Positions 1 to 12,276 of a stretch of DNA of 32,000 nucleotides are shown here, one piece after another; position 1 is the stretch's first letter, and each line of letters begins with the position of its first letter. The stretch spans positions 480,001-512,000 of the forward strand of contig NZ_CP007754.1 of the NCBI RefSeq assembly GCF_000757865.1. Reading direction: 5' to 3'. The notes beneath the pieces were generated by a model. It searched no databases. It saw nothing but the letters and a program-made list of their open reading frames with translations, and was not told where the DNA came from. A program made the position numbers and the translations under genes. The stretch comes from Prochlorococcus sp. MIT 0801. Lineage in GTDB: Bacteria; Cyanobacteriota; Cyanobacteriia; PCC-6307; Cyanobiaceae.

Positions 1-1384
1 AGAAAATAAAAGACTTCTGATATATACCAAATTCTTCTACTTTAAATGTTCTATTTGAGATAGATAATGTATCATCATTACATTGATAATTATCTGGCAT
101 ATAAATAACTTCTTCAGAATAATATTTCTTATACTCTTGAGGGATTAAATTTTTATCTGCGATTATATAGTCAATTACTTCAGAACCAGTAGTGCAAGGA
201 TAGCCTAAATAAGAAATTTGGATTGGAGCTGGTTTGTATGCAAAAATTCCATGTCGGCTGCTATCTGAATAGCCCATTAAATCAATAGCTATATCAATTT
301 CATCTGATACAACTAATTCAGCAACTTCTAAGTCGTTCAGTTTCTCAACATCACGATAAGAATCCGAGGCATAAATAATACGGTTAGTATAATTATCATG
401 CTTACTTCCAACTAATGAATAAGAAAATAACTTAAATTTATCCCTATTATGTAATTCTAAAACTCTTACGAGCAAATGAGAAACAGCATGTTCGTAAAAA
501 TTACCAGAGAAGTATCCTATGCGGATTCTTTTATGCTGTTTAAGTCTTAACGAAAACCTCTTTCTTTTAAAGTTATGATCAAAATATCGCCTGGCTCTAA
601 TCAATTGCCGACTTGGAGAATCTTCCATAGAAAGAATACCCATAGGACTTATAGGTATCCCCTTAATCCCTAACTCGTTTAACCATAATCTCCTGGTATT
701 AAAATTACTCCAGTCGCAAATCTCTCTTTCAAACATTATTAAAGCCTTTTGAATTGAATAATTTTTATTATCTATTTTTAAGCCTTTTTTCAAAAGAGAT
801 ATAGACTCATAATTATTCTTTAATTTATGATTAGATAATGCTAAATTTAGATATGTATCAGAATAATTATCATTAATTTCAAGAGATTTCATATAACTAT
901 CTAAAGCCTTATTATAAAAACCTTGTTTATAATATAAATTACCAATATTATAAAAAAGTATAAAGGACTTATTATTAATTTCTAGTGCTAGAGAATAAGC
1001 TTTATAAGCTCCCTTATGATCATCTAGATATTGTCTTGCAAGTCCAAGATTACATAATGCATCGAAGTAATCTGGTTTAATTTTAATTGCATTTTCATAA
1101 GCAGAAACTGCATAAGAGTAATTTTTTTGATTTTTAAATGCTAATCCTAATATCGACCATGCACTATAAGAATTTTTATTTAACGTTATAGCTTTTTTAC
1201 AAAAAACTATAACGTTTTTCCAATCTTTATTCTTCGCATAGATAAAAGCGAGATTTTTATAATCATTATGATCAGCCAAGTTTAAGGAAATTAATTTATT
1301 ATAAATGTCCTTAGCTGATTGATATTCTCCTTTTTCAATATAACTTCTTGCAAGAGAATTTTCCTTATCCTTATTGAACGCCAT
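1..1384 (-). CDS. TPR-repeat protein fused to an OGT/SPINDLY-type (GT41) glycosyltransferase domain; partial, C-terminus runs off the window
   Basis: Absent from the ORF track because it has no stop in the window. My hand translation of the minus strand from the ATG at 1384..1382 stays open to position 1 (461 codons). It reads MAFNKDKENSLARSYIEKGEYQSAKDIYNKL..., then several TPR-like repeats. It continues RIGYFSGNFYEHAVSHLLVRVLELHNRDKFKLFSYS ... DIAIDLMGYSDSSRHGIFAYKPAPIQISYLGYPCTTGSEVIDYIIADKNLIP, which matches the conserved core of SPINDLY/OGT family glycosyltransferases. The start lies 17 nt after the stop of the upstream 1146-aa gene, so the two look like an operon. Confidence 0.8.
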   Translation of the reverse strand, partial: MAFNKDKENSLARSYIEKGEYQSAKDIYNKLISLNLADHNDYKNLAFIYAKNKDWKNVIVFCKKAITLNKNSYSAWSILGLAFKNQKNYSYAVSAYENAIKIKPDYFDALCNLGLARQYLDDHKGAYKAYSLALEINNKSFILFYNIGNLYYKQGFYNKALDSYMKSLEINDNYSDTYLNLALSNHKLKNNYESISLLKKGLKIDNKNYSIQKALIMFEREICDWSNFNTRRLWLNELGIKGIPISPMGILSMEDSPSRQLIRARRYFDHNFKRKRFSLRLKQHKRIRIGYFSGNFYEHAVSHLLVRVLELHNRDKFKLFSYSLVGSKHDNYTNRIIYASDSYRDVEKLNDLEVAELVVSDEIDIAIDLMGYSDSSRHGIFAYKPAPIQISYLGYPCTTGSEVIDYIIADKNLIPQEYKKYYSEEVIYMPDNYQCNDDTLSISNRTFKVEEFGIYQKSFIF

Positions 1385-1401
1385 ATAAAAGGTTATGGAA
1401 T

Positions 1402-4400
1402 TTAAATAGATCCTATATCTTTGTATTTTACTCTTTTGGATAAGATATTAATAGCAGGCTGTAAGAGTTCATTATAATTAATCCAACCTCCTAATGATTT
1501 TGAATTAATTGGGGACCTAGCCTGAACACTACTAGCTGTACTAATATTCCTCTTAGTGAGATGCGGAAATTGATATTCGTTATTCCATTCCCAACCAAGC
1601 CAACGTATTAATTTCCGGATTTGATAAGAAGGATTTAAAACTAGTTTATCGTAATTTAACATATATATATTTGACGGAAACTTCGATTTATATTTTAATA
1701 TAGTATCTTCTTGTTCAAGATAAAGTCTTGCAGTCTCTTCTAGTGAAGAAGAAAAATGATTTCCCCGATTATCAAAGTTAGCTCTATAAATCGAAAGAAT
1801 ATTATCTAAGGGGTGCCTATAACAATTAATAATCCTAGAATTAGGTATTAAAGAGCAAATTATACCTGCATATTGATAATTAAAAAGCCATTTATCAGTA
1901 CTAATAGAAGAATTAATTCGATTATGATTCATTTTTTGAATGTAAATTTCAGATAATTTTTTATCTAATACATTTTTATTATTATATTCTTCAAAAGAAT
2001 TCTCAAGAATATTCGTTTCTCCTAAATCAAAAACATCCTTATTCATATTCAAAATAGACTCTAAAAGTGTAGATCCACTTCTTGGCATACCAACAATAAA
2101 AATATGATTAAATTGATTATTAGATATGTTACTCTGATTGTAATAAGTATTAGATATAGCCATTAATTGTTGAGATTTTTGTATTAAGAAATCTGAATCT
2201 GATTTAAATACATTCATCTTATATTGATTGGCTTTTGTTAAAGATAATTGACTATCATTATATTTAGATAAACTATGTTGAATATTTGATCTAGCAAAAT
2301 ATATATGAGATAAACTAATTAAGGATTGATCTTTAAGAATTTCATCAGAGAATAATATATTAAGTATATCTTTATTAAAAGATGAGCTGGCAACAACAGA
2401 TAAAGCATAATAGGCCTTTGCTAATTTTGGATTAATCCTTATTGCCGATTCAATTGACTCTTGAGATTCTCTAATCCTACCCGTATCTCTTAAAATATTA
2501 CCCAAGTTTAAATAAGCTTCAGAAGAATTAGAGTTTATTGAAATAGATTTTTTTATTGTTTGCTCAGCAATTCCTAAGTCACCAAGATCAATATATATAG
2601 CAGAAAGATTTAAATAATAATCTCCTTTTGAGGGATTTAATTTAATTGCCTTTAAAACTGATTTCTTAGCTTGTAGGAAATCTCCAAGATCTCTTTCAAT
2701 AACACCTTTAATTGAATAGGCTTCTGAAAATTCTGGAGTTATATCTATAGCTTTAAGACATAACCTTAATGCCGAGTTTAAGTCTCCAATATCCCTCATA
2801 ATGCTTGCAAGATCAATAATATATTTTGAATTTTTTGGATCAATTGAAATCGATTTCTCAATATATCTTCTAGCTTTAGCAAATTGATTTAATCCTTTTA
2901 AGATAGATGCATAAACAGAATTAGTATGTGCTGAATCTGGGTTAATATAAAGAGAATCCTCTATATATTTTTTTGCCTTTAAATATTTTCCAATCATTAA
3001 ATAAACAATAGAAATATTTGTTAACAAATCAGCACTTTTTGGATATGTTTTAATTCCCTCTTTGTAAATATTTAGAGATAAAATATATTCGTTATTTTCA
3101 AATAATATACCACCATATCTTAAGAACAAATCAATATGATTATAATTATTATTATGACATAACTGATATAACTCTTTAGCTTTCTCAATATTATTATTGT
3201 CATGAAATTGTACTGCCTTTTTAAATATATTTGTTTGTATAAACTTACATTTTTCTTTCACGAAATTATCTTTATTAACTATTCTCATTGCGGGTCCCAG
3301 CATCATTTTATAATTCTTCCATCCATCTAATGATTTCTTATTAATAGGTTCTCGTACTTGAACATTACTAGCTGTTGATACAGTACGGTAATTAAGATGA
3401 GGAGTTAAATATTCATCCATCCAATTAAATCCAATCCATTCTATTAATGATTTGATTTCTTTATCAGGGTTCTTAATTAGAGCATCATAATCAAAACTAT
3501 AAATCAGGTCAGAATACTTTTGTTTATATAAATCCATTATAATCTGATGATTTAAATATACTTTAGAACATTCTCTAATGGAAGAAGCATAATGATTACC
3601 AGTTGCAAAATGAGCTCTATATATTGATAAAATATTATCTAATGGGTTTCTATAGCAATAGATAATTCTGGAATTTTTTATCAACTTAGAAATTACACCA
3701 GTATATTGATAATTGTATAACCACTTATTAGTTGTTATATTGGCTTCAGTTATTTTAAGAATATTTTGCTTATATATAGTGTATAAATTTGAATCAATGT
3801 TATTTTCAATATTTTGTTTCCATTGATAAAATGACTTTTCTAAAATATCTTTTTCACCTAAATCAAAGATTTGATTATTTCTAGTTAATATTGACTCTAG
3901 CAATGTTGATCCACATCTTGGCATACCAACAATAAATATAAATTCAATTTTATTATCTAGATCACTCTGATTATAATGGTCAGATTCTAAATATAAATAT
4001 CTACTTTTTTCTAATATTGGATTAATAATTGGTGGATCTAATTTAGCTTTTATATCGTTAGCAATATTAAGAGAAGATTGACTATCAAAATATTTTCTTC
4101 TTTTATGTAAAATATTAGCTCTAGCAAAGAAAATATTGCTTTTACTTTTTTCATTTTGATTAACCAAAATTTCCTTTGAAAAGAGAAACTTAATACAATC
4201 TTCTTTAGGATTAAATTGCTTAATCTCTGTGATCGATAAATAAGCTTTTGAATATTTGGGTGAAATCTCTATAACGTTTGATAAATAGTTTATTGCTTTT
4301 TTGAAGTCACCAAGATCTTTATATAATATTCCGAGATTATAATTAGCATCTGCATATTTAGAGTCTAACTTAATAGCTTTTGTTAGATATTTAATTGCTT

Positions 4401-4842
4401 CATCATATTCAGATTGTTCTTTTAAAGTGATACCTAAATTATTATATAAACTAGCTAAATTTGGATTAATTTTTATTCCTTTTTTTAATATTATTTTTGC
4501 CTTATTTAATTCTCCCATTTGATAATATAACGACCCAAGATTACTATAGGCATCAACAAATTTAGGGAAATAGTTAATAGATTTTATATACAGATCAATT
4601 GCATCATCTAATTTATTCTCAATTTGTAAAATAGCGGCATAGTTAGTAAAAACTGAAGGGTTTTTTATGTCTGCCTCTACTAAATATATATAACAAGATT
4701 TAGCATTTATAATATCTCCATTTAAATGAAAAGATATTCCAAATTCAATTAATTCATTTTCACTATATCCTTCAAAATCTAAACTTTCAATTAATTTACC
4801 ATCGATAGTGTAAATATATTTTTTTCTAATAATCTCTTTCAT
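1402..4842 (-). CDS. Double-module TPR-sulfotransferase (two TPR-array plus PAPS-type sulfotransferase units in one 1146-aa polypeptide)
   Basis: ORF track, 1146 aa. It carries two PAPS 5-prime-phosphosulfate-binding loops, GMPRCGST (nt 3904..3927) and GMPRSGST (nt 2068..2091). Each is followed by RNPLDNILSIYRA / RHPLDNILSIYRA and a C-terminal STAS-VQ-R-PIN-KS-GGW-NY motif. Each is preceded by 5-7 TPR-like repeats (NLG..Y...G....A...Y.KAI.I.P). Confidence 0.85.
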   Translation of the reverse strand: MKEIIRKKYIYTIDGKLIESLDFEGYSENELIEFGISFHLNGDIINAKSCYIYLVEADIKNPSVFTNYAAILQIENKLDDAIDLYIKSINYFPKFVDAYSNLGSLYYQMGELNKAKIILKKGIKINPNLASLYNNLGITLKEQSEYDEAIKYLTKAIKLDSKYADANYNLGILYKDLGDFKKAINYLSNVIEISPKYSKAYLSITEIKQFNPKEDCIKFLFSKEILVNQNEKSKSNIFFARANILHKRRKYFDSQSSLNIANDIKAKLDPPIINPILEKSRYLYLESDHYNQSDLDNKIEFIFIVGMPRCGSTLLESILTRNNQIFDLGEKDILEKSFYQWKQNIENNIDSNLYTIYKQNILKITEANITTNKWLYNYQYTGVISKLIKNSRIIYCYRNPLDNILSIYRAHFATGNHYASSIRECSKVYLNHQIIMDLYKQKYSDLIYSFDYDALIKNPDKEIKSLIEWIGFNWMDEYLTPHLNYRTVSTASNVQVREPINKKSLDGWKNYKMMLGPAMRIVNKDNFVKEKCKFIQTNIFKKAVQFHDNNNIEKAKELYQLCHNNNYNHIDLFLRYGGILFENNEYILSLNIYKEGIKTYPKSADLLTNISIVYLMIGKYLKAKKYIEDSLYINPDSAHTNSVYASILKGLNQFAKARRYIEKSISIDPKNSKYIIDLASIMRDIGDLNSALRLCLKAIDITPEFSEAYSIKGVIERDLGDFLQAKKSVLKAIKLNPSKGDYYLNLSAIYIDLGDLGIAEQTIKKSISINSNSSEAYLNLGNILRDTGRIRESQESIESAIRINPKLAKAYYALSVVASSSFNKDILNILFSDEILKDQSLISLSHIYFARSNIQHSLSKYNDSQLSLTKANQYKMNVFKSDSDFLIQKSQQLMAISNTYYNQSNISNNQFNHIFIVGMPRSGSTLLESILNMNKDVFDLGETNILENSFEEYNNKNVLDKKLSEIYIQKMNHNRINSSISTDKWLFNYQYAGIICSLIPNSRIINCYRHPLDNILSIYRANFDNRGNHFSSSLEETARLYLEQEDTILKYKSKFPSNIYMLNYDKLVLNPSYQIRKLIRWLGWEWNNEYQFPHLTKRNISTASSVQARSPINSKSLGGWINYNELLQPAINILSKRVKYKDIGSI

Positions 4843-5130
4843 TATTCTTGAAAAACCTAGAAAATAGAAATTACTAATTAATTAGAGAAGAAACATAGAA
4901 AATATAGAAAAGGATGGTGAAACTCATTTGTTTAAATAATTAAAAATTATGGAGCCATGAATAATTGAGTCTCTAAGGAAATGTTTGACATAGAGCTTGT
5001 TTAACAACTGAGCCATGGCCCAAATCTTAGTTATTGAAATGATCGCAAACAATCTAAAAAACATTGTTATTATACTTTACCATCAAAAAACACCAATACA
5101 CATCGAGTAAAAAACCAATGCTAATTAGAT

Positions 5131-5152
5131 TCTCCGGTAAATCTCCGGTGAA
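5131..5152. repeat. Tandem 11-bp direct repeat TCTCCGGTAAA / TCTCCGGTGAA in a divergent intergenic region
   Basis: Read directly: tctccggtaaa (5131..5141) followed immediately by tctccggtgaa (5142..5152), with one mismatch. It has a GC-rich core in an otherwise AT-rich 476-bp spacer between divergently transcribed TPR-enzyme genes. Confidence 0.6.
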
Positions 5153-5318
5153 TTTGTCACAATTGCTAATTACTTATGTACTAATGGATTGAGTCTAATT
5201 CCATCTCGCAAAAAGATCAACTTCTACTTGATTGTAGCCTTTCAATTTCTTTTGAAATTAAAAAACCAATTTTAATATATAATTATCATTAATAGACCCT
5301 TAAAAACCATCAATAGAC

Positions 5319-7013
5319 GTGAGTAATAGGAAAAAAGTTAAAAGAACTGAAAGATATAAATTCCCCACCTTCTCAGTGCCATTTAATTTAGATGAAATCA
5401 AGGAAAATTTTACTATTAATACAAACACTACATCTAATATTTCTAAGGATGTCCTTAATCAAGCATTTAATGCTCATACAAATGGAAATATTAAAGAAGC
5501 TATAGAATCTTATCAATATCTTATCAGTCAAGGATTTAATGATCCCAGAGTTTATTTAAACTATGGAAGTATATTGAAAAATCTTGGAAAATTAGAGGAA
5601 GCAGAATTAATAATCCGTAAAGGTATAGAACTAAATCCTAACTTTGCTATGGGTTATTTTAATTTAGGAATTATTTTAATAGATCTTTCTAAACCTAATG
5701 AAGCAGAGTTAGCAACTAGAGAAGGAATAAAACTTAATCCAAATTTTGCTATAGGTTACTTTAATTTGGGAATTATCTTAAAAACTCTTGGGAAAATGAA
5801 TGAGGCAGTATTAGCGATAAATAAAGCTATTGAATTAAATCCAAATCATTCTAATTCATATTTTCATCTTGGAACTATATTAAATATTCTAGGTCAAAAG
5901 AAAGAAGCAGAGATAGAAATTAAAAAAGCTATTAAAATCAATCCAAATTTTTTAGAAGCTTATATTAACTTAGGAATAATTTTAAGAGATCTTGGTAAAA
6001 TAAAGGAAGCAATATTGGTGACAAGAAGAGCTATTGAAGTTGACCCTAACATTGCTGAATCTTATTCTAACCTCGGATCATTATTAGTTGATCTAGGTAA
6101 TCTTGATGAAGCAGAAATTGCAATGAATAAAGCAATTACTATAAATCCTAATAATATGAAATTTAAGTCAAATTTGATAAGCCTACTTAGTATCTATAAA
6201 CCATGTGATAATAATTCTAATCAATTATATATTATCAATGAGGAATTTAACAAAATTAATCTTTCTTATAGTGATAGTGAATTTATTAGTGATATTAAAG
6301 TAATGAATATTTATAGAAAAGGATTAGAAATTTATAAGAAACATAATCTATCTTTGGAGACCGATGCTTATCAAATATATAGAAGTAATGAGATAAATCT
6401 AAATTGTGAAAGACATCATATGGTTTTTGAAAAAAATAAGATAATCCCAGCATTTTGTTTCAATTGTTATAAAGTTCAAATTGAAACTAATTCAATAATA
6501 GAATTTATTAAAATATTCTTAGTATTTAATCGAATAAAATTAGAAAATAACAATACTAGAAAATGTATGGTTGAATTGAGACCAAATATTCCAGGTTTTT
6601 ATAAAGGTTTGATTTATTGTAGTGATTTAAATGAAGCATATCTTATTTCTAATCAGCTAGATAATATTATTCAAAAAAATGTTAGAAGCAACTTACAGTC
6701 GATAGTTAAAAGAGGTTGTTCTGAATTCCAAAAAGAATTCCCTGAATATAAAGAGATAAATAGATTTGGAAGTCAAACAATGGAATATAATAAAGAATGG
6801 AGAAGAATTGAAAATGAAGCTGACAAGGGTTATGGAAACTGGGGTAAATCTCATAAAACTATAAATGAATTTAATTTAAATAACTTTCTTATTATGAGAA
6901 ACTGGTTAGCTTATGCTCATAAGATAGGGGATAAAAGTATATATAAAATATCCGAAGAAATAATAAAAGGTACAGAAAAGTTTAAATATTTGAATAGATC
7001 TATTAATACTTAG
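5319..7013 (+). CDS. TPR-repeat protein with an unassigned Cys/His-containing C-terminal domain
   Basis: ORF track, 564 aa, with a GTG start at 5319 and no nearby ATG. Residues ~45-290 are TPR repeats and are identical to the paralog at 7145..9223 through LGNLDEAE. Residues ~295-564 carry no motif I can assign to a known family. They contain C363-x2-H366-H367-x12-C380-x2-C383 (CERHH...CFNCYKV). Confidence 0.75.
   Translation: MSNRKKVKRTERYKFPTFSVPFNLDEIKENFTINTNTTSNISKDVLNQAFNAHTNGNIKEAIESYQYLISQGFNDPRVYLNYGSILKNLGKLEEAELIIRKGIELNPNFAMGYFNLGIILIDLSKPNEAELATREGIKLNPNFAIGYFNLGIILKTLGKMNEAVLAINKAIELNPNHSNSYFHLGTILNILGQKKEAEIEIKKAIKINPNFLEAYINLGIILRDLGKIKEAILVTRRAIEVDPNIAESYSNLGSLLVDLGNLDEAEIAMNKAITINPNNMKFKSNLISLLSIYKPCDNNSNQLYIINEEFNKINLSYSDSEFISDIKVMNIYRKGLEIYKKHNLSLETDAYQIYRSNEINLNCERHHMVFEKNKIIPAFCFNCYKVQIETNSIIEFIKIFLVFNRIKLENNNTRKCMVELRPNIPGFYKGLIYCSDLNEAYLISNQLDNIIQKNVRSNLQSIVKRGCSEFQKEFPEYKEINRFGSQTMEYNKEWRRIENEADKGYGNWGKSHKTINEFNLNNFLIMRNWLAYAHKIGDKSIYKISEEIIKGTEKFKYLNRSINT
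5366..6117 (+). repeat. Copy 1 of a 752-bp near-identical direct repeat (TPR-coding module)
   Basis: Base-by-base comparison with 7198..7949 (offset 1832). I found a single difference, T at 5477 versus C at 7309, a synonymous His codon. Flanks on both sides do not align. Confidence 0.9.
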
Positions 7014-7144
7014 AATACATTAAATTTAATCAATTAAGAATGTATACTTCAAAGTTTGAAAAATTTTTTGAAGATCTATTATAAAATCAGAACAAAATAT
7101 GTTAAAATTTAAGAAATTTTTTATAGGTCAAGTATAAATCTCAT

Positions 7145-9223
7145 ATGGAGAAGATAGGCGAGGAGAAGCAAGGAAAAAAAAAAGTAACTAGAGAAATCAC
7201 CTTCTCAGTGCCATTTAATTTAGATGAAATCAAGGAAAATTTTACTATTAATACAAACACTACATCTAATATTTCTAAGGATGTCCTTAATCAAGCATTT
7301 AATGCTCACACAAATGGAAATATTAAAGAAGCTATAGAATCTTATCAATATCTTATCAGTCAAGGATTTAATGATCCCAGAGTTTATTTAAACTATGGAA
7401 GTATATTGAAAAATCTTGGAAAATTAGAGGAAGCAGAATTAATAATCCGTAAAGGTATAGAACTAAATCCTAACTTTGCTATGGGTTATTTTAATTTAGG
7501 AATTATTTTAATAGATCTTTCTAAACCTAATGAAGCAGAGTTAGCAACTAGAGAAGGAATAAAACTTAATCCAAATTTTGCTATAGGTTACTTTAATTTG
7601 GGAATTATCTTAAAAACTCTTGGGAAAATGAATGAGGCAGTATTAGCGATAAATAAAGCTATTGAATTAAATCCAAATCATTCTAATTCATATTTTCATC
7701 TTGGAACTATATTAAATATTCTAGGTCAAAAGAAAGAAGCAGAGATAGAAATTAAAAAAGCTATTAAAATCAATCCAAATTTTTTAGAAGCTTATATTAA
7801 CTTAGGAATAATTTTAAGAGATCTTGGTAAAATAAAGGAAGCAATATTGGTGACAAGAAGAGCTATTGAAGTTGACCCTAACATTGCTGAATCTTATTCT
7901 AACCTCGGATCATTATTAGTTGATCTAGGTAATCTTGATGAAGCAGAAAAAGTATTGTTTAAGGCTATTAACCTTAATCCAAATTTAGCAAAATCATATA
8001 ATAGTCTAGGGATTTTATTTAAAACTTCAGGAAAAATATTAGAAGCAGAAAAGTTTCTTCGTCAAGCTATTAATCTTGAACCAGACTTTCCAGAGTCCTA
8101 TTATAATTTAGGTACTTTAATGAGAGATATTGGTAAATTAAAAGAAGCTGAGGATTTATTAGTTAAATCTATTCAAATTGATCCTTATATTGCTAAATCT
8201 TATTTTGTACTTTCTACTTTAAAATCAACAAGTAAAGATAAAATCTGGAAAGATAAACTCTTTTCAGAATCCATATTAACTAATCTACTCTCAAATAATA
8301 GATTTGATATTTTTTTTGCTAGAGCAAATATTCTTCATAGGGAGAAAAATTATATTGAAAGTGCCAAATATTTAAAATTAGCTAATTCCTTAAAATTTAA
8401 GAACCAACAAAATTATTCTAATAATATAATTCTCAAAACAAAAATGCTACTTATAGATTCAGAGAATTCAATTTGTAGTTATAATCAGAATATTAGTCGA
8501 AAAGCAATCACACAAGAAAGTATTTTTATAGTAGGTATGTTTAGAAGTGGGTCTACACTTTTAGAATCTATAATCAGTATGAATCCTAATGTTGTAGATC
8601 TAGGTGAAACAAATATTCTTGAAGAATCTTACGAACAATTGAAGAAATATAATGAGAATAATCAAGATTTTAATCTTTCTAATTTATACTATGAGAAGGT
8701 AAATCATTTAAAATACAATTCAAAAATATCTACTAATAAGGCACTATTTAATTATCAATATTCGGGAATAATAGCTAAACAAATCTTGAATTCTAAAATT
8801 ATTCATTGCTTTAGAAACCCTCTAGATAATATTCTATCAATTTACCGTGCAAACTTTGCCCATAAAAATGAATATGCTTCCTCATTAATTGAATGTACAA
8901 AGATTTATTTAGATCAAGACCATATAATGGAACTATATAAAAAGAAATATCGTGAAAAAATCTATGATTTAAATTACGATTTATTAGTGTCCAATCCTAA
9001 AGAAGAAATTAAATCATTAATCTCCTGGATGGGTTGGGAATGGAATGATTTATATCTCTCGCCTCATTTAAATAAACGCTCAATATCTACAGCAAGTAGT
9101 GTTCAAGTTCGTTTTCCAATTAATTCAAAATCTATTGGTGGTTGGAAAAACTACAAAGATATACTACGGCCTGCTATTGAAATCCTTAAAAAGACTTATA
9201 AATATCGAAATATTATCTCATGA
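7145..9223 (+). CDS. TPR-repeat sulfotransferase
   Basis: ORF track, 692 aa, with an N-terminal TPR array of about 9 repeats. The C-terminal domain has GMFRSGSTLLESI (PAPS loop), RNPLDNILSIYRANF and STASSVQVRFPINSKSIGGWKNY. It aligns along its length with both sulfotransferase modules of the 1146-aa protein. Confidence 0.85.
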   Translation: MEKIGEEKQGKKKVTREITFSVPFNLDEIKENFTINTNTTSNISKDVLNQAFNAHTNGNIKEAIESYQYLISQGFNDPRVYLNYGSILKNLGKLEEAELIIRKGIELNPNFAMGYFNLGIILIDLSKPNEAELATREGIKLNPNFAIGYFNLGIILKTLGKMNEAVLAINKAIELNPNHSNSYFHLGTILNILGQKKEAEIEIKKAIKINPNFLEAYINLGIILRDLGKIKEAILVTRRAIEVDPNIAESYSNLGSLLVDLGNLDEAEKVLFKAINLNPNLAKSYNSLGILFKTSGKILEAEKFLRQAINLEPDFPESYYNLGTLMRDIGKLKEAEDLLVKSIQIDPYIAKSYFVLSTLKSTSKDKIWKDKLFSESILTNLLSNNRFDIFFARANILHREKNYIESAKYLKLANSLKFKNQQNYSNNIILKTKMLLIDSENSICSYNQNISRKAITQESIFIVGMFRSGSTLLESIISMNPNVVDLGETNILEESYEQLKKYNENNQDFNLSNLYYEKVNHLKYNSKISTNKALFNYQYSGIIAKQILNSKIIHCFRNPLDNILSIYRANFAHKNEYASSLIECTKIYLDQDHIMELYKKKYREKIYDLNYDLLVSNPKEEIKSLISWMGWEWNDLYLSPHLNKRSISTASSVQVRFPINSKSIGGWKNYKDILRPAIEILKKTYKYRNIIS
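7198..7949 (+). repeat. Copy 2 of the 752-bp near-identical direct repeat (TPR-coding module)
   Basis: See copy 1. Identity starts at CACCTTCTCAGTGCC and ends at GATGAAGCAGAAA in both copies. Confidence 0.9.
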
Positions 9224-9496
9224 TATAAAATTACTAACTGGTTAAATTTTTCTCTATATTTTAACATAATATCCGCTTCCATGAGATCTATATTTTCTGC
9301 CACAAAAGGTAGAAAAGCTAATAGTTAATTCTTAATAAGGTATGTAAAAATCATTGTTCAATAAACAATCATGAGAAATTGCTTTCTGTACGATATAAAT
9401 AATTTCTCTGGATGGATTGTCTGCGGATACCTTGTATAATTATCAACTATGAATTTATAGTAAGTACTCATTTCGTTATATAATTTTTATATCTGT

Positions 9497-11470
9497 TTAT
9501 TTTCTGGTTATTTTTTTTCCATTTAGATAAAGTACATCAAGTTTTGTAGTTACAAGGAAATTAATAGCTTCTGCAGGTTTCTCAACAATAGGTTCTTTCG
9601 GACCATTAAATGATGTATTAAGTACAACTGAACATCCTGATAGTTCTTTAAATTTCTTAAGTATTAAAAATAGTCCACCTGTTTCCACTGTAACAGTTTG
9701 AACCCGTGCAGAACCGTCGACATGAGTAATTGCAGGCAGATTATTTTTTAGAACTTGACCAGTGAAAAGCATAAATGGAGACTCATTTTGCAACCCACTA
9801 AAGTACATATCAACATCTTCTTTCAAAACTGCAGGTGCGAAAGGACGCCATTTTTCTCTTTGTTTTAACTCATTCATGCGTTTCCAATTTTCAGAGTAAG
9901 TGGGATTGCTCAATAGTGAACGATGTCCCAGAGCACGAGGTCCTATTTCGCTGCGACCTTCAAACCAAGCGATGATTTTATTTTCATGAAGGTCTATCGC
10001 TGCTGATTGTTCACAATTAATATTGTCTTCGATATTTATTTGATCTTGAAAGCTTTTAATTGCTTCATTAATACTATTTTTACTATTTTTTAAACCAAGA
10101 TAAGGAAGAGATAAATATGATTTATTTGAAATTTCTAGACTAGGGTTGTCTAGTACATGGTGATAAGCATATTGAGCTCCTCCCAAAGATAATCCACTGT
10201 CATCACAAAAAGGAGGAATATAGATATTTTTAAAAGCACTTTCTTTAAATAAAAGTGAATTGGCAGGGCAATTTAGTCCTGTACCACCTGCATAGCAAAT
10301 AGTATCAATATCAATTTCGTTGTTAAGACAAATATTTGAAATACTTTCGACTGTTTGTAATAAAGTTCTTTCGAAAAGTTTTTGAGTACTAGCTGCAATG
10401 TCAATGCATATAGGTTCAAGAATTCGGTTACAATTTCCTATTGGATCGAGATCGTATCCCATTGATTTAGCTAATTTTATGCAATTTTTTAGCCAACTTT
10501 TTCTTAAATTTTTTATACCTCTGAAACGCAGGTCGTAAGTATTACCAACCATGTCTTCATTGAAAAAAATAGGTTTACCATAAGGGGCTAGACCCATCAA
10601 TTTCCCAGCTGCTCCAAAATAGTCAAACCCTAAGAAATTTCCAACTCGAATATATAAATCACCAATAGTAAGATGATGTGGAAAAATAGGAAGAATTTTA
10701 TTTGATTCTCCATAAAAAATCATTCCGTTAAGAGGACCAGTTTCTAGCAATCCTCCATCATGAGTGAGAATTATAGAATTCTTAGATGTACAGTTATAAA
10801 AAGCAGATGCAGCATGAGCAGCATGATGTTGAATAGCAACGCCAGGTATGCTTCTCCCCTTTAAAGTAACTCTTAGGGGAAAGTGAAAAAGAGATTCTGA
10901 TTTTTCTTTTTCATTTAATAAATTTTTAATCTTTAAATCAGAAATATCTTTTAAACCCATTTCTTGTTTCCAAAAATTAAGTTCAGCAAAATCTCTCAAT
11001 GATTTTTTTATGCCTAAGTCCTCTTTTTTTACTTTCTTATACTCAGGAAATTGATTTTTATAACTTCTTGATGCTACTAAATCATCACAATAAACATTAT
11101 TAATTATGGAACCACCCAAACGAGTATTAAAATTATTATTATTTTCATTGAAATTCTCATTATAAAGAATTGATTTTATTTTCTTGTTAGGGTGCTCTCC
11201 ATATTCAATTTGTAATTCTTTAGGTCGATCAACCACTACAAGTTCATAAGCTTGAGTAGAAGTAATAGCAATCATATCAATATCTTCTATTTCTAATTCT
11301 GCATTTAATAAGGATTCCTCAATATGTGAAACATTAATTCCAAATGAATGCTTTGCTCTGTTGTATCTTTCTCTAATTAAATTACATTTAGGAATACCAT
11401 TCACTAATATAGCAATACCGGCATCATGCCCAAAATGAAGTCCTAAAATTACAGTTTTATTATTTTTCAT
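9497..11470 (-). CDS. Carbamoyltransferase, NodU/CmcH/TobZ family
   Basis: ORF track, 657 aa. Family hallmarks are ILGLHFGHDAGIAIL at the N-terminus, HHAAHAASAFY, CYAGGTGLNCPANS and, in the C-terminal domain, HVDGSARVQTV and VLNTSFN. Confidence 0.9.
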   Translation of the reverse strand: MKNNKTVILGLHFGHDAGIAILVNGIPKCNLIRERYNRAKHSFGINVSHIEESLLNAELEIEDIDMIAITSTQAYELVVVDRPKELQIEYGEHPNKKIKSILYNENFNENNNNFNTRLGGSIINNVYCDDLVASRSYKNQFPEYKKVKKEDLGIKKSLRDFAELNFWKQEMGLKDISDLKIKNLLNEKEKSESLFHFPLRVTLKGRSIPGVAIQHHAAHAASAFYNCTSKNSIILTHDGGLLETGPLNGMIFYGESNKILPIFPHHLTIGDLYIRVGNFLGFDYFGAAGKLMGLAPYGKPIFFNEDMVGNTYDLRFRGIKNLRKSWLKNCIKLAKSMGYDLDPIGNCNRILEPICIDIAASTQKLFERTLLQTVESISNICLNNEIDIDTICYAGGTGLNCPANSLLFKESAFKNIYIPPFCDDSGLSLGGAQYAYHHVLDNPSLEISNKSYLSLPYLGLKNSKNSINEAIKSFQDQINIEDNINCEQSAAIDLHENKIIAWFEGRSEIGPRALGHRSLLSNPTYSENWKRMNELKQREKWRPFAPAVLKEDVDMYFSGLQNESPFMLFTGQVLKNNLPAITHVDGSARVQTVTVETGGLFLILKKFKELSGCSVVLNTSFNGPKEPIVEKPAEAINFLVTTKLDVLYLNGKKITRK

Positions 11471-11473
11471 TAG

Positions 11474-12157
11474 CTAATTAAGGTCTTTTAAAATTCTTCC
11501 AAGTAAGGAATATGCATCGACAAAGTCAGGATTAAGTTGTATCGCTTTACGAGTAGATAATTCGGCCTCTTTTAATTTACCAAGATCTTTTAATATCTTA
11601 CCTAAGCTGGCATGGGCTTCGGCTAAATCAGGTTTAAGTTCAATAAATTTTCTTATTGATAATTCAGCTTCTTTTAATTTACCTAGACTTTTTAATATAT
11701 TTCCAAGATTGTAATAAGCCTTTGTGAAATTTGGATTAAGTTTTATTGCTTTTTTATGCATAAACTCTGCTTCTTTTAACTTTGATAGTTCTTGTAAAAT
11801 ATTTCCAAGATTGAAATAATACATAGCATTATTGGGATTATGTTCAATTGCCTTACGTGTAAAAAATTCTGCTTCACTTGAGTTCCCACGACTTTTTAAA
11901 ATTGCTCCATAATTAGAAAAAACTCTGTGATCATTAAATCCTTGATTTATACAATATTGATAATACTTTGCTGCTTCTGAAATGTTGCCTTGTGAATGAA
12001 AGTTTAGTGCTTGATTAATTATTTGAGCGGGAGAAGGCTTATTAGATTTATTGCTATTGATAGTAAAAATTTCTGCGGTTTCACCTAAAGTAATTTGAAC
12101 TGGGATGATGTTCAATTTAGATACTTCTTTTTTCTGATCTGCTTTTCTCTCAGTCAC
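11474..12157 (-). CDS. Stand-alone TPR-repeat protein, in frame with the downstream carbamoyltransferase
   Basis: ORF track, 227 aa. Its pre-TPR segment and first repeat (EIFTINSNKSNKPSPAQIINQALNFHSQGNISEAAKYYQYCINQGFNDHRVFSNYGAILK) are paralogous to the N-termini of the 5319 and 7145 genes. The TAG stop at 11476..11474 is followed by one codon (CTA) and then the carbamoyltransferase ATG at 11470, all in the same frame. Confidence 0.8.
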   Translation of the reverse strand: MTERKADQKKEVSKLNIIPVQITLGETAEIFTINSNKSNKPSPAQIINQALNFHSQGNISEAAKYYQYCINQGFNDHRVFSNYGAILKSRGNSSEAEFFTRKAIEHNPNNAMYYFNLGNILQELSKLKEAEFMHKKAIKLNPNFTKAYYNLGNILKSLGKLKEAELSIRKFIELKPDLAEAHASLGKILKDLGKLKEAELSTRKAIQLNPDFVDAYSLLGRILKDLN

Positions 12158-12276
12158 ATCTATTTTTTGAAAGGATCAATTAGTTGACATTATAGCTTGA
12201 ACCTAAGTTATAACTTTCAAAGAAATTATCGATTCAATTTTATAGCTGGATTGTCAGCAGTTGGCGAACTAGTTGG

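What the first reader, a model, noticed from the sequence alone, without database searches (positions are those of the whole stretch)
1..12157. Cassette-like block of TPR-scaffolded group-transfer enzymes (GT41, three sulfotransferase domains, a carbamoyltransferase and one orphan domain)
All six consecutive genes carry, or are directly coupled to, a TPR array. The first repeat follows one pattern in each gene (A-x2-F-H-x2-G-[ND]-I-x-[EK]-A ... Y ... [FY]-x-N-Y-[GA]-x-I-L). The catalytic end differs from gene to gene. It is an OGT/SPINDLY-type GT41, a PAPS-type sulfotransferase three times (GMPR[CS]GST and R-[NH]-PLDNILSIYRA motifs), a NodU/CmcH-type carbamoyltransferase, or an unassigned Cys/His domain. 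From established knowledge, the OGT TPR superhelix selects protein substrates. Also established, sulfation plus carbamoylation is how NodH and NodU decorate oligosaccharides. My inference is that one recognition scaffold is being recombined with interchangeable donor chemistries to decorate a shared target, either a surface protein or a glycan. This lineage is known for variable surface-modification islands that matter for phage susceptibility. No substrate gene, PAPS-synthesis gene or exporter is visible here, so the function is open. The block is more AT-rich than the core part: my hand counts of 60-nt lines gave 20-30% GC. It ends abruptly at fabG.
Basis: partly seen in the sequence, partly recalled or inferred. 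Interest (0 to 1): 0.75.

Follow-up and report, generated by a model that had tools for sequence, protein, structure and literature searches.

The report
Swappable TPR-enzyme island in Prochlorococcus
A strain-specific 16-kb insertion in Prochlorococcus MIT 0801 holds enzymes that add sugar, sulfate or carbamoyl groups, and several of them share one recombining N-terminal TPR docking module; this points to a mix-and-match kit for decorating a still unknown, probably cell-surface, target.

Summary
The block is real. Pfam confirms TPR+GT41, three TPR-linked Sulfotransfer_3 domains, a NodU/CmcH-type carbamoyltransferase preceded by a TPR-only gene, and a TPR protein whose C-terminal domain matches no family or known fold.

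It is the window's part of a ~16-kb, 24-32% GC insertion between fabG and groEL of Prochlorococcus sp. MIT 0801 (clade LLI). The closest complete genome, MIT 1012, has an empty site. A 9-nt direct repeat brackets the insertion.

The shared first-repeat pattern is part of a conserved ~100-residue "head": a basic leader plus TPR1-2. The head is present in g3, g4 and g6, degenerate in g2, and absent from the GT41 gene g1.

Recombination is directly visible. g3 (orphan domain) and g4 (sulfotransferase) share a 752-nt tract with a single mismatch. In marine metagenomes the same head is fused to GT41, sulfotransferase, methyltransferase, 2OG-oxygenase, TagF-like and several unassigned domains. Head similarity follows the genome, not the enzyme type.

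The TPR-only + carbamoyltransferase pair recurs at four loci.

The target is untested: it could be a protein, a glycan or a glycoprotein. So is any role in phage susceptibility.

Verdict: observation largely confirmed. The scaffold-shuffling interpretation is supported; the shared-target function remains inference. This is a new variant of known TPR-adaptor transferases within a known type of hypervariable island.

The parts
2..1384 (-). g1: the N-terminal 461 aa of a 647-aa TPR + GT41 (OGT/SPINDLY-type) glycosyltransferase. The gene runs off the left end of the window. It lacks the family head.
   Evidence: Pfam Glyco_transf_41 E 1.9e-37. The full gene in L081 gives 4.2e-80 and E 1.1e-101 to human OGT. 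Head HMM score 8.8 bits.
1402..4842 (-). g2: a 1146-aa protein made of two tandem [TPR array + Sulfotransfer_3] units (AIQ96634). Each unit has a degenerate head-like first repeat.
   Evidence: Two Sulfotransfer_3 stretches, E 3.2e-49. Internal direct repeats spaced 1833-1836 nt, 70-72% identical. Motifs GMPRCGST/GMPRSGST and R[NH]PLDNILSIYRA. Head HMM 37.6 and 25.0 bits.
5319..7013 (+). g3: head + 7 TPR + a ~284-aa orphan C-terminal domain (aa 281-564) with invariant C-x-R-H...C-F-x-C-Y-K-V (AIQ96636, misnamed 'elongation factor P' in GenBank).
   Evidence: No non-TPR Pfam, NCBIfam or PHROG hit. 426 homologues, nearly all TPR-fused. AF2 pLDDT 88.8. No Foldseek match with E<=1e-3 in PDB or BFVD.
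5366..6117 (+). Copy 1 of the 752-nt near-identical tract. It runs from the leader motif 'FSVPF' to TPR 6 of g3.
   Evidence: Identical to 7198-7949 except at position 5477. The Logan unitig L081 breaks about 30 nt inside it.
7145..9223 (+). g4: head + ~10 TPR + Sulfotransfer_3 (AIQ96637). It has its own ATG start and its own 5' region.
   Evidence: Pfam Sulfotransfer_3 3.7e-24. TPST2 is the best PDB relative. Head HMM 150 bits. The upstream region differs from the family promoter.
7198..7949 (+). Copy 2 of the 752-nt tract, inside g4.
   Evidence: The Logan unitig L082 ends at window position 7920, about 30 nt inside the tract.
9497..11470 (-). g5: a 657-aa O-carbamoyltransferase of the NodU/CmcH/TobZ/GdmN superfamily (AIQ96638), without TPR.
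   Evidence: Carbam_trans_C 4.2e-55 and Carbam_trans_N 2.4e-32. GdmN 1.5e-55 and TobZ 1e-42. phrog_1601 5.4e-99. 73-76% identical orthologues in other Prochlorococcus genomes.
11474..12157 (-). g6: a 227-aa head + 5 TPR protein with no catalytic domain and a GTG start. Its stop codon lies 3 nt upstream of the g5 start, so it is the presumed adaptor subunit for g5.
   Evidence: Pfam finds TPR families only. Head HMM 161 bits. The same TPR-only + carbamoyltransferase pairing, with a 2-nt gap or a 4-nt overlap, occurs in L085, L086 and L092.
12277..12285 (-). The island/core junction: the last two codons and stop of fabG (ATGAGTTAA). This is one copy of a 9-nt direct repeat that brackets the island.
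   Evidence: The other copy (ATGAGTTGA) lies at L081 ~9113, followed by sequence collinear with the MIT 1012 fabG-groEL spacer. MIT 1012 has a single copy.
12277..13029 (-). fabG, the first core gene. The collinear core follows: ispD, LD-carboxypeptidase, ubiA, ppx and onwards.
   Evidence: adh_short_C2 2.4e-66. 95% aa identity to MIT 1012 FabG. 10 kb of core is 90.6% identical at the nucleotide level.

Best explanation
The block is most of a ~16-kb strain-specific insertion between fabG and groEL of Prochlorococcus sp. MIT 0801 (clade LLI). It encodes soluble 'adaptor-plus-transferase' proteins.

In g3, g4 and g6 the adaptor is a conserved head followed by a variable number of OGT-like TPRs. 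The head is a basic leader with the motif K-T-F-x-V-P-F plus the first two TPRs. The working end is fused to the adaptor (sulfotransferase, orphan domain) or encoded by the translationally coupled next gene (carbamoyltransferase).

I infer that the TPR superhelix docks each enzyme onto one common polypeptide partner in the cytoplasm. That partner is most likely the substrate itself: an exported (glyco)protein, modified on its side chains or on its attached glycans. This would work as the TPRs of OGT and FlmG do. The C-terminal domains would then transfer sulfate (from PAPS), sugar (from an NDP-sugar) or carbamoyl (from carbamoyl phosphate and ATP).

Homologous recombination and gene conversion between the TPR-coding 5' parts re-pair adaptors and enzymes and homogenise adaptors within a genome. 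Strains therefore carry different decoration sets, which would diversify a cell-surface structure.

Shown here: the domain identities, the island status, the head family, the recombination tract, and the multiplicity of C-terminal chemistries. Inferred: docking on a common partner, the nature of the substrate, the surface location, and the ecological role.

My split within this explanation: about 55% polypeptide or glycoprotein target, and about 45% glycan target with the TPR binding an assembly protein.
For: Domains:
- All enzyme domains pass the Pfam cut-offs.
- g1 scores E 1e-101 to human OGT and 1e-60 to SPINDLY.
- For a profile of the three sulfotransferase domains, the only matches covering most of the domain are TPST2 and TPST1 (E 8e-7 and 1e-4). 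No carbohydrate sulfotransferase appears at E<=1.
- The PAPS-binding motifs are conserved in all three sulfotransferase domains.

Island:
- GC is 24-32% against 31-42% in the core.
- The site is empty in MIT 1012 despite 90.6% flank identity, and island DNA gives no blastn hit in the MIT 1012 locus.
- A 9-nt direct repeat lies at both junctions.
- The same site holds different TPR genes in GCA_003279585.1.
- Each protein looked up (g2-g5) is a singleton or near-singleton cluster at 90% identity.

Adaptor family:
- The 105-aa head is 42-93% identical across proteins with different C-termini.
- The TPR arrays of g3, g4 and g6 are 47-55% identical to head-type arrays on a GT41 and a sulfotransferase in other genomes. 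Best-HSP identity to an unrelated TPR control is nominally similar (31-36%) but covers only short segments and scores only 22-30 bits (E 1e-2 to 1e-5), against 201-307 bits (E down to 1e-105) within the family.
- 710 database proteins match the head profile at E<=1e-5.

Shuffling:
- A 752-nt tract with one mismatch is shared by g3 and g4. Independent short-read unitigs break at both of its ends.
- Among 38 complete metagenomic head proteins, the C-termini are 2OG-FeII_Oxy_5 (7), GT41 (5), Sulfotransfer_3 (4), SAM methyltransferase (4), Glyphos_transf (2), and several families without a Pfam match.
- Head nearest neighbours follow the genome, not the enzyme type.
- The TPR-only + carbamoyltransferase pair is conserved at four different loci, and the ~2.5-kb module is 77% identical at the nucleotide level.

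Precedent:
- The TPR domain of FlmG is necessary and sufficient to bind its flagellin substrates (PMC7591256).
- Strain-specific island genes for LPS and cell-wall biosynthesis determine phage resistance in Prochlorococcus (PMC3429526).
Against: - No substrate, exporter or PAPS gene lies in the island or window, so the target and the surface location are pure inference.
- g1 lacks the head and g2 carries only a degenerate head-like repeat. 'One scaffold' therefore applies to three of the six genes.
- The orphan domain has no demonstrated or predicted catalytic fold.
- The characterised carbamoyltransferases that match g5 here (GdmN, the novobiocin enzyme, TobZ) act on small-molecule antibiotics. 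Their action on small molecules and oligosaccharides rather than proteins is stated from knowledge.
- TagF-like C-termini and neighbouring nucleotide-sugar and sugar O-methyltransferase genes point to glycans.
- TPR domains can also serve oligomerisation.
- Head conservation could be a by-product of gene conversion rather than of a shared ligand.
- The comparison set is small: 11 heads and 38 metagenomic proteins.
- There are no expression data.
- The TPST similarity is remote (about 31 bits).
Confidence: 0.5

Rival explanations
1. Glycan tailoring. The enzymes decorate a lipid-linked or nascent polysaccharide (LPS O-antigen, or a capsule- or teichoic-acid-like polymer) with sulfate, carbamoyl, methyl or glycerophosphate groups. 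The TPR/head does not read the substrate. Instead it tethers the enzymes to a protein of the assembly machinery or makes them oligomerise.
For: - In CP114784.1 the head genes sit among GDP-mannose-dehydratase/epimerase/RmlD-type genes and methyltransferases.
- Neighbours in metagenomic loci include RMNT_CmcI and TylF sugar O-methyltransferases, a cytidylyltransferase and an epimerase.
- Two head proteins end in Glyphos_transf (TagF-like) domains.
- The island's seventh gene is a methyltransferase + Glyco_trans_1_2 fusion.
- The characterised relatives of g5 (GdmN, novobiocin carbamoyltransferase, TobZ) modify small-molecule hydroxyls; NodU-type enzymes carbamoylate oligosaccharides (from knowledge).
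- Resistance mutations in Prochlorococcus map to island genes for LPS and cell-wall biosynthesis (PMC3429526).
Against: - g1 is a clear OGT/SPY-type GT41, a family whose characterised members all glycosylate proteins (established knowledge, CAZy GT41).
- The sulfotransferases' only full-domain PDB relatives are TPST1 and TPST2.
- No Wzx, Wzy, Wzm, Wzt or initiating-transferase gene lies in the island.
- None of the proteins shows an obvious hydrophobic membrane segment (read from the sequences).
Confidence: 0.3
2. Intracellular regulatory modification. These are OGT-like enzymes that modify many cytosolic proteins for signalling, with no link to the cell surface.
For: g1 is strongly similar to OGT and SPINDLY. 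All the proteins look soluble. TPR Pfams are enriched in LL Prochlorococcus and have been read as physiological adaptation (PMC11357015).
Against: - The genes are strain-specific, low in GC, absent from a relative with 90.6% flank identity, and found at different loci in different genomes. That is the opposite of what is expected of a housekeeping regulatory system.
- They co-occur with sugar-tailoring genes.
Confidence: 0.07
3. Tailoring of a secreted small molecule or peptide natural product, with the TPR acting as a precursor-peptide or carrier-protein recognition element.
For: - The closest solved relatives of g5 tailor antibiotics: GdmN, the novobiocin carbamoyltransferase and TobZ.
- The CurM sulfotransferase is a weak hit.
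- LuxE, LuxC and AMP-binding genes lie near some head genes.
- Iyer et al. proposed peptide-metabolite modification for TPR-fused dioxygenase clusters in cyanophage and cyanobacteria (PMC2938197).
Against: There is no NRPS, PKS, precursor-peptide, cyclase or exporter gene in the island or in the flanks examined. Clade LLI is not known for such pathways (from knowledge).
Confidence: 0.06
4. The near-identical 752-nt tract is an assembly artefact (a collapsed or duplicated repeat), and the apparent g3/g4 chimerism is not biological.
For: Short-read assemblies cannot span 752 nt. The Logan unitigs stop at the tract.
Against: - The unitigs break at both ends of the tract, as expected when two left contexts and two right contexts exist.
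- The two copies differ at one (synonymous) position.
- Both flanking contexts are intact ORFs.
- The record is a closed genome.
- Similar though older head/TPR repeats exist in another closed genome (954 nt, 82% identical).
- Even if left and right contexts were paired the other way, two genes would still share the array.
Confidence: 0.04

Closest known systems
OGT / SPINDLY / bacterial OGT homologues (CAZy GT41: TPR superhelix + GT-B catalytic domain)
   Same: g1 has the same architecture and strong sequence similarity: E 1e-101 to human OGT, 1e-60 to SPY and 4e-51 to XcOGT. The TPRs of g3, g4 and g6 are of the same 34-residue 'x-N-L-G' type.
   Different: g1 itself lacks the family head. 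In the head family the TPR array is combined with sulfotransferase, carbamoyltransferase (in trans), methyltransferase, oxygenase and unassigned domains, not only with GT41. No substrate is known.
FlmG of Caulobacter crescentus (TPR N-domain + GT-B glycosyltransferase acting on flagellins; PMC7591256)
   Same: It is a modular design in which the TPR domain alone binds the protein substrates and the catalytic domain alone cannot. This is the mechanistic model proposed here.
   Different: The catalytic family is different and there is no sequence relationship to the head. Prochlorococcus has no flagellins (from knowledge). Here the same adaptor type serves many chemistries and is exchanged by recombination.
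Protein-tyrosine sulfotransferases (TPST1/2; bacterial RaxST recalled from memory) within Pfam Sulfotransfer_3
   Same: Sulfotransfer_3 is above its cut-off. The 5'-PSB loop (GMPRSGST) and the 3'-PB motif (R-x-P-x-D-x3-S) are present. TPST2 and TPST1 are the only PDB matches that span the domain.
   Different: The similarity is remote (about 31 bits). These proteins are fused to TPR arrays, and duplicated within g2. The acceptor is unknown. The AF2 model failed (pLDDT 35.8), so no fold-level comparison was possible.
O-carbamoyltransferases NodU / NolO / CmcH / TobZ / GdmN, and the cyanophage 'Nol-like carbamoyltransferase' auxiliary genes
   Same: g5 has both Carbam_trans domains. E is 1.5e-55 to GdmN and 5.4e-99 to phrog_1601.
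   Different: g5 is not a NodU equivalog (130.7 bits against a cut-off of 1000). Phage copies are only 30-36% identical. g5 is uniquely paired with a translationally coupled TPR-only gene at four loci. No TPR fusion was seen among the 120 best homologues.
Prochlorococcus hypervariable genomic islands (ISL4-type viral-susceptibility regions) and 'replacement flexible genomic islands' (PMC3429526, PMC4033161)
   Same: The block is low in GC, strain-specific, inserted between conserved core genes, differs in content at the same site in related genomes, and has a surface-modification-type gene repertoire.
   Different: It lies at the fabG-groEL junction of an LLI strain. It is not flanked by a tRNA or an integrase. 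It is dominated by one modular TPR-adaptor family. No link to phage susceptibility was tested.
TPR-fused 2OG-Fe(II) dioxygenases in cyanophage and cyanobacterial tailoring clusters (Iyer et al. 2010, PMC2938197)
   Same: Seven of the 38 metagenomic head proteins end in a 2OG-FeII_Oxy_5 domain. That paper predicted peptide modification for such clusters.
   Different: No oxygenase is present in this window. The head was not found on IMG/VR viral contigs or in phage genomes.

Membership tests
GT41 (OGT/SPINDLY-type protein glycosyltransferase) | The Glyco_transf_41 catalytic domain scores above the Pfam gathering score | tested here: met
   g1 partial: 129.2 bits against a cut-off of 25. Full gene: 270 bits. 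344 bits to human OGT.
GT41 (OGT/SPINDLY-type protein glycosyltransferase) | An N-terminal TPR array precedes the catalytic domain | tested here: met
   TPR_1 and TPR_2 hits at aa 11-206 of g1.
GT41 (OGT/SPINDLY-type protein glycosyltransferase) | Transfers a sugar to Ser/Thr (or Asn) of proteins | not testable with these tools
   Needs biochemistry.
PAPS-dependent sulfotransferase, Sulfotransfer_3 / TPST-like | The Sulfotransfer_3 domain scores above the Pfam gathering score | tested here: met
   g2: 168.6 bits (two stretches). g4: 86.6 bits. Cut-off 27.
PAPS-dependent sulfotransferase, Sulfotransfer_3 / TPST-like | A 5'-phosphosulfate-binding loop (P-R-S-G-S/T-T) and a 3'-phosphate-binding motif (R...S) | tested here: met
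   GMPRCGST, GMPRSGST and GMFRSGST, and R[NH]PLDNILSIYRA, are invariant across the three domains. In g4 the Pro is replaced by Phe.
PAPS-dependent sulfotransferase, Sulfotransfer_3 / TPST-like | Tyrosine of a protein or peptide as the acceptor | not testable with these tools
   There is only remote similarity to TPST2 and TPST1 (E 8e-7 and 1e-4). The AF2 model was unusable.
NodU/CmcH-type O-carbamoyltransferase | Carbam_trans_N and Carbam_trans_C both score above their cut-offs | tested here: met
   113.1 and 186.3 bits against cut-offs of 24 and 27. GdmN E 1.5e-55.
NodU/CmcH-type O-carbamoyltransferase | Orthology to NodU (NCBIfam equivalog NF041651) | tested here: not met
   130.7 bits against a cut-off of 1000.
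Head-TPR adaptor family (defined here) | An N-terminal ~105-aa head: basic leader + K-T-F-x-V-P-F + 'A-x-x-F-H-x-x-G-N-I-x-E-A...N-Y-G-x-I-L' | tested here: met
   g3 156.7, g4 150.4 and g6 161.5 bits with the head HMM. These three were in the training set. The untrained proteins L084_563 and L084_orph444 score 78-87 bits on the TPR part only.
Head-TPR adaptor family (defined here) | The same head in g2 | tested here: inconclusive
   37.6 and 25.0 bits, covering HMM positions ~37-104 only and without the leader. The TPR arrays are 30-37% identical to head-type arrays.
Head-TPR adaptor family (defined here) | The same head in g1 | tested here: not met
   8.8 bits, similar to internal generic TPR units. 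22-28% identity to the other arrays.
Accessory genomic island | Absent from a close relative, with conserved flanks and a precise empty site | tested here: met
   In MIT 1012 fabG is followed after 312 nt by groEL. The flank is 90.6% identical. Island DNA gives no blastn hit in the MIT 1012 locus.
Accessory genomic island | Deviant base composition | tested here: met
   24-32% GC against 31-42%.
Accessory genomic island | Mobility hallmarks (tRNA target, integrase or transposase) | tested here: not met
   No tRNA lies next to the island. No recognisable recombinase ORF lies in the 1.4 kb next to the far junction. Only a 9-nt direct repeat is present.
Known anti-phage defence systems | A match to a PADLOC model other than generic TPR | tested here: not met
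   Only TPR-driven hits (PrimPol-TPR and TPR models) and one weak methyltransferase hit (mad2, E 4.6e-4) for the island's methyltransferase-glycosyltransferase gene.

The most novel reading that the evidence does not exclude
Prochlorococcus carries a lineage-specific combinatorial protein-decoration system. One conserved head+TPR adaptor recognises a single exported polypeptide. By gene conversion the adaptor is re-paired with at least eight different tailoring chemistries. These would include tyrosine or hydroxyl sulfation and an O-carbamoylation of a protein or glycoprotein, which would be unprecedented; the latter would be delivered by a two-subunit adaptor-enzyme pair. Each strain would then display a different post-translational 'coat' on the same surface protein, as a defence against phages and grazers.
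Probability: 0.2. Interest if true: 0.85.

Novelty: new variant of a known kind. Interest (0 to 1): 0.6.

Why it matters
Prochlorococcus is the most abundant phototroph on Earth. Its coexistence with phages is attributed to hypervariable islands whose genes are mostly uncharacterised.

This analysis turns one such island into a defined, testable object. It is a family of adaptor-enzyme proteins with a recognisable head. Recombination between paralogues is demonstrated. There is a catalogue of attached chemistries and a recurrent two-gene adaptor + carbamoyltransferase module.

It also offers a concrete explanation for the reported excess of TPR domains in low-light-adapted strains, which had been read as related to photosystem assembly (PMC11357015).

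If the TPR arrays bind one common partner, finding that partner would identify a major variable surface determinant. It might also reveal bacterial protein sulfation or carbamoylation outside the few known cases.

Tried and rejected
- Fold assignment of the orphan domain. A confident AF2 model was obtained (pLDDT 88.8), but Foldseek found nothing at E<=1e-3 in PDB or BFVD. The best TM-score normalised to the query was about 0.25, to LANA and PII-like ferredoxin-type cores. Sequence searches of PDB, Pfam, NCBIfam, PHROGs and PADLOC also found nothing. The domain stays unassigned.
- AF2 model of the g4 sulfotransferase domain. I used only the three window paralogues as the alignment. It failed (pLDDT 35.8), so no fold search was run on it.
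- The single exhaustive profile search. It was wasted because alignment A1 kept the TPR columns, so the list was swamped by giant TPR proteins (988,203 hits).
- The word-indexed search with the head profile. It returned only short fragments on contigs mostly under 2 kb and gave no architectures. The metagenome locus scan replaced it.
- The genome-contig scan with FabG.
- Phage origin. No head was found on IMG/VR contigs. There is no cyanophage relative of g3. Phage carbamoyltransferases are only 30-36% identical. Rejected as a recent source.
- Defence-system membership. Rejected.
- TPR-carbamoyltransferase fusion proteins as 'Rosetta stone' support. None were seen among the top 120 homologues; the 824-909-aa hits carry no TPR Pfam domain.
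- tRNA or integrase at the island borders. None were found.
- Literature. Searches for Prochlorococcus + TPR + sulfotransferase returned nothing.

Full report
SOURCE AND ANATOMY

Exact-sequence look-up places the window in the closed 1,929,203-bp genome of Prochlorococcus sp. MIT 0801. g2, g3, g4 and g5 are AIQ96634, AIQ96636, AIQ96637 and AIQ96638. The flanking core is 90.6% identical at the nucleotide level, and collinear, with strain MIT 1012. MIT 1012 belongs to clade LLI (PMC12675747).

The left 12.3 kb holds six ORFs:
- g1, 2-1384(-), cut by the window edge
- g2, 1402-4842(-)
- g3, 5319-7013(+)
- g4, 7145-9223(+)
- g5, 9497-11470(-)
- g6, 11474-12157(-)

fabG follows at 12277-13029(-). 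After it come ordinary core genes, read from the translations: ispD, LD-carboxypeptidase, ubiA, ppx, cobM, lgt, petA, petC, tatC, gmk, psaF, tsaD, gltX and rplS.

CHECK OF THE OBSERVATION

Every catalytic assignment passes Pfam's curated cut-offs:
- Glyco_transf_41 in g1
- two Sulfotransfer_3 domains in g2 and one in g4
- Carbam_trans_N and Carbam_trans_C in g5
- TPR families in g1-g4 and g6
- nothing beyond TPR in g3

The complete g1 was recovered from a Logan contig of the same strain (L081). It is 647 aa and scores E 1.1e-101 to human OGT, 1e-60 to SPINDLY and 4e-51 to XcOGT. g5 matches the solved carbamoyltransferases GdmN (1.5e-55), the novobiocin enzyme and TobZ. It is far below the NodU equivalog cut-off (130.7 against 1000 bits).

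GC is 24-32% in the block and mostly 31-42% after fabG.

Two details in the finding are not exact. The strict first-repeat motif matches only g6. g3 and g4 miss it at one position and the two halves of g2 at one or two positions. g1 does not match at all. Also, g4 reads GMFRSGST, not GMPR[CS]GST.

IT IS AN INSERTED, STRAIN-SPECIFIC ISLAND

In MIT 1012 fabG is followed after 312 nt by groEL, at normal GC. In MIT 0801 the contig L081 shows that the block continues past window position 1. It runs through the rest of g1, a 573-aa Methyltransf_12 + Glyco_trans_1_2 gene with no TPR, and about 1.4 kb of small ORFs before groEL. The total is about 16.0 kb.

The far junction reads ...ATGAGTTGA|GCAGATATTAATTTTC. 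From there on it aligns with the MIT 1012 fabG-groEL spacer. The near junction is the fabG terminus ...ATGAGTTAA. The 9-nt fabG end is therefore present at both borders and only once in the empty site. No tRNA or recombinase flanks the island.

Island DNA gives no blastn hit in the MIT 1012 locus. A third LLI-type genome (GCA_003279585.1, 89.9% flank identity) carries different TPR genes at the same site. These are a TPR-orphan gene next to fabG and a TPR-sulfotransferase beyond groEL. The groEL-ABC transporter segment between them is inverted.

Each protein looked up (g2-g5) is a singleton or near-singleton cluster at 90% identity among about 15 billion proteins; the exact g6 sequence is not in the collection. 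The refutation criterion 'core rather than accessory' is therefore not met.

THE SHARED SCAFFOLD IS A DEFINED 'HEAD'

I aligned the N-termini of TPR proteins from the window and from three other Prochlorococcus loci. This shows a ~105-residue module: a basic leader (…ERKKDQKQKV.EVKTF.VPF.LGE..EN.TIN.N…) followed by TPR1-2 (…INQAF.FHS.GNI.EA.KYYQYFINQGF.D.RVFSNYG.ILK…). It has 19 invariant columns.

The module heads proteins with different C-termini:
- sulfotransferase (g4, L083)
- the orphan domain (g3)
- GT41 (a 921-aa protein in CP114784.1)
- four further C-termini without a Pfam match
- the TPR-only partners of carbamoyltransferases

A head HMM gives 150-177 bits for these proteins, but they formed the training set, so the score is partly circular. 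Internal TPR units score 10-25 bits. The g2 halves score 37.6 and 25.0 bits, and g1 scores 8.8.

Pairwise, the arrays of g3, g4 and g6 are 47-55% identical to head-type arrays from other genomes (E down to 1e-105). g2 is 30-37% identical to them. g1 is 22-28% identical, close to an unrelated TPR control.

So the third refutation criterion fails for g3, g4 and g6, is borderline for g2, and holds for g1. The block mixes three head-family genes with a distant relative and an ordinary OGT-like gene.

Most head genes also share a promoter-like TATAAT about 35 nt upstream of a conserved leader and a GTG or TTG start. g4 does not.

RECOMBINATION IS DIRECTLY VISIBLE

Window 5366-6117 and 7198-7949 are identical except for one synonymous position. 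The tract starts at the 'FSVPF' codons and ends inside TPR 7. It excludes both genes' start codons and upstream regions and both C-terminal domains. It is therefore a conversion or crossover tract between paralogues, not a whole-gene duplication.

Two independent short-read unitigs of the same strain stop about 30 nt inside the tract, one at each end. That is the behaviour expected of a true two-copy repeat.

The sulfotransferase domain of g4 is only about 54% identical to those of g2, so the TPR part and the catalytic part have different histories.

In the 11-head matrix, nearest neighbours follow the genome rather than the enzyme type:
- The three carbamoyltransferase-partner heads are not each other's closest, although their carbamoyltransferases are 73-76% identical orthologues.
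- In CP114784.1, the heads of the 601-aa and 571-aa proteins are 77% identical, with a 954-nt, 82% identical DNA repeat that includes the upstream region. Their C-termini are only 28% identical.

MANY CHEMISTRIES ON ONE HEAD

A metagenome scan with the head profile returned 80 marine loci. Of 38 complete proteins of at least 380 aa, the C-terminal 300 residues carry:
- 2OG-FeII_Oxy_5 in 7
- Glyco_transf_41 in 5
- Sulfotransfer_3 in 4
- SAM methyltransferase domains in 4
- Glyphos_transf (TagF-like) in 2

The rest fall into groups without a Pfam match. Two of these groups match the unassigned C-termini of CP114784.1.

The TPR-only + carbamoyltransferase pair, with a 2-3-nt gap or a 4-nt overlap between the genes, occurs at four different loci: the window, CP114784.1, QCPD01000012 and the TARA contig L092. 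The ~2.5-kb module is 77% identical at the nucleotide level. No TPR-carbamoyltransferase fusion was seen among the 120 best homologues.

Neighbouring genes include 2OG oxygenases, CmcI- and TylF-type sugar O-methyltransferases, a cytidylyltransferase, epimerases and dehydratases. In one locus there is a 1066-aa subtilase-cadherin-DUF4214 protein.

THE ORPHAN DOMAIN

Residues 281-564 of g3 define a family of at least 426 proteins (E<=1e-3). Almost all are TPR-fused and come from marine samples. Invariant residues include C83, R85, H86, C100, C103, K105, R134, E139, R141, K184, R185 and D258, numbered within the domain.

AF2 models the domain confidently (pLDDT 88.8, pTM 0.88). No PDB or viral structure matches at E<=1e-3. 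It may be an enzyme, a Zn-binding module or a binding domain. Calling it a 'catalytic end' is unsupported.

MECHANISM

What is shown: the proteins appear soluble, with no obvious hydrophobic segment or signal peptide in the sequences. They carry donor-dependent transferase domains behind, or next to, a recombining TPR adaptor. They sit in a strain-variable island.

What is inferred: the TPR superhelix docks the enzymes on a common polypeptide. This is modelled on OGT (established knowledge) and FlmG (PMC7591256).

In favour of a protein or glycoprotein target:
- the GT41 family membership of g1
- TPST1 and TPST2 as the only full-domain PDB relatives of the sulfotransferases, with no carbohydrate sulfotransferase at E<=1
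- the earlier prediction of peptide modification for TPR-fused dioxygenases (PMC2938197)

In favour of a glycan target:
- the known substrates of carbamoyltransferases (small molecules and oligosaccharides; partly, partly from knowledge)
- the TagF-like C-termini
- the sugar-nucleotide and sugar-methylation genes in the neighbourhood

A glycoprotein reconciles both, and it is my preferred reading. The relevance to phage susceptibility rests only on precedent from other Prochlorococcus islands (PMC3429526).

COMPARISON AND NOVELTY

Each enzyme class and the TPR-enzyme architecture are known, and NCBI already names g2 and g4 'tetratricopeptide repeat-containing sulfotransferase family protein'. 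Hypervariable surface-modification islands are also a known feature of this genus.

What I could not find described:
- the conserved head
- its attachment to many tailoring chemistries
- the conserved split adaptor + carbamoyltransferase pair
- the near-perfect conversion tract between genes with unrelated C-termini

The one paper noting a TPR excess in LL strains attributes it to photosystem assembly or heterotrophy (PMC11357015).

I rate this a new variant of a known kind, with interest 0.6. The functional half is open but directly testable.

Noticed in passing
window 12277-12285, and L081 ~9113-9121: A 9-nt direct repeat ATGAGTT(A/G)A (the last two codons and stop of fabG) sits at both borders of the ~16-kb island. 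It is single-copy in the empty site of MIT 1012. It looks like a target-site duplication or a microhomology junction. No transposase or integrase was found.
   Followed up: partly
L083 (GCA_003279585.1, QCHH01000003) 216-8875: The core segment groEL - 157-aa ORF - ABC-2 permease - ABC ATPase is inverted relative to MIT 1012 and MIT 0801. It is bracketed by two inversely oriented TPR genes that share a 207-nt, 78% identical inverted repeat. This suggests inversion by recombination between TPR arrays. The TPR-orphan gene there lacks a head.
   Followed up: partly
window 12158-12260 (upstream of g6) and 5215-5318 (upstream of g3); L085 and L086 head genes: Most head genes share a promoter-like (A/T)ATATAAT about 35 nt upstream of a conserved 'ATAGAYGTGAYTGARAGAAAA' leader and start with GTG or TTG. 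g4 has a different 5' region and an ATG start. This hints at co-regulation or controlled low translation.
   Followed up: partly
window 5319-7013: g3 is named 'Translation elongation factor P' in GenBank (AIQ96636.1), which is a misannotation. RefSeq calls a 545-aa form that starts 19 codons later and cuts off the conserved K-x-P-T-F-S-V-P-F leader.
   Followed up: yes
window 1402-4842: g2 is a single 1146-aa ORF made of two complete TPR-sulfotransferase units. The sulfotransferase domains are about 50% identical, and DNA repeats spaced 1833-1836 nt are 70-72% identical. It is an old tandem fusion rather than a recent duplication.
   Followed up: partly
window 27303-27824: A DUF1643 gene (E 2e-36) sits in a 27.6% GC pocket between tsaD and a Na+/H+ antiporter. 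It is possibly a second, single-gene islet.
   Followed up: partly
L096 3343-6540: A 1066-aa subtilase + cadherin-like + DUF4214 protein lies next to a head-TPR gene in a TARA contig. It looks like a secreted or surface protein and is a speculative candidate for the kind of protein such enzymes might modify.
   Followed up: no
L085 (CP114784.1 773184-795127): Another closed Prochlorococcus genome has seven head-type genes within 22 kb: a GT41, four with C-termini that match no Pfam family, and a TPR-only + carbamoyltransferase pair. They sit among GDP-mannose-dehydratase/epimerase/RmlD-type genes, at a different chromosomal site from the MIT 0801 island.
   Followed up: partly
window 9497-11470: g5 matches the PHROG family 'Nol-like carbamoyltransferase' (E 5e-99). 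Related genes occur in 136 phage records, mostly cyanomyophages and pelagiphages, at 30-36% identity. This enzyme class is shared between host islands and phage auxiliary gene sets.
   Followed up: partly
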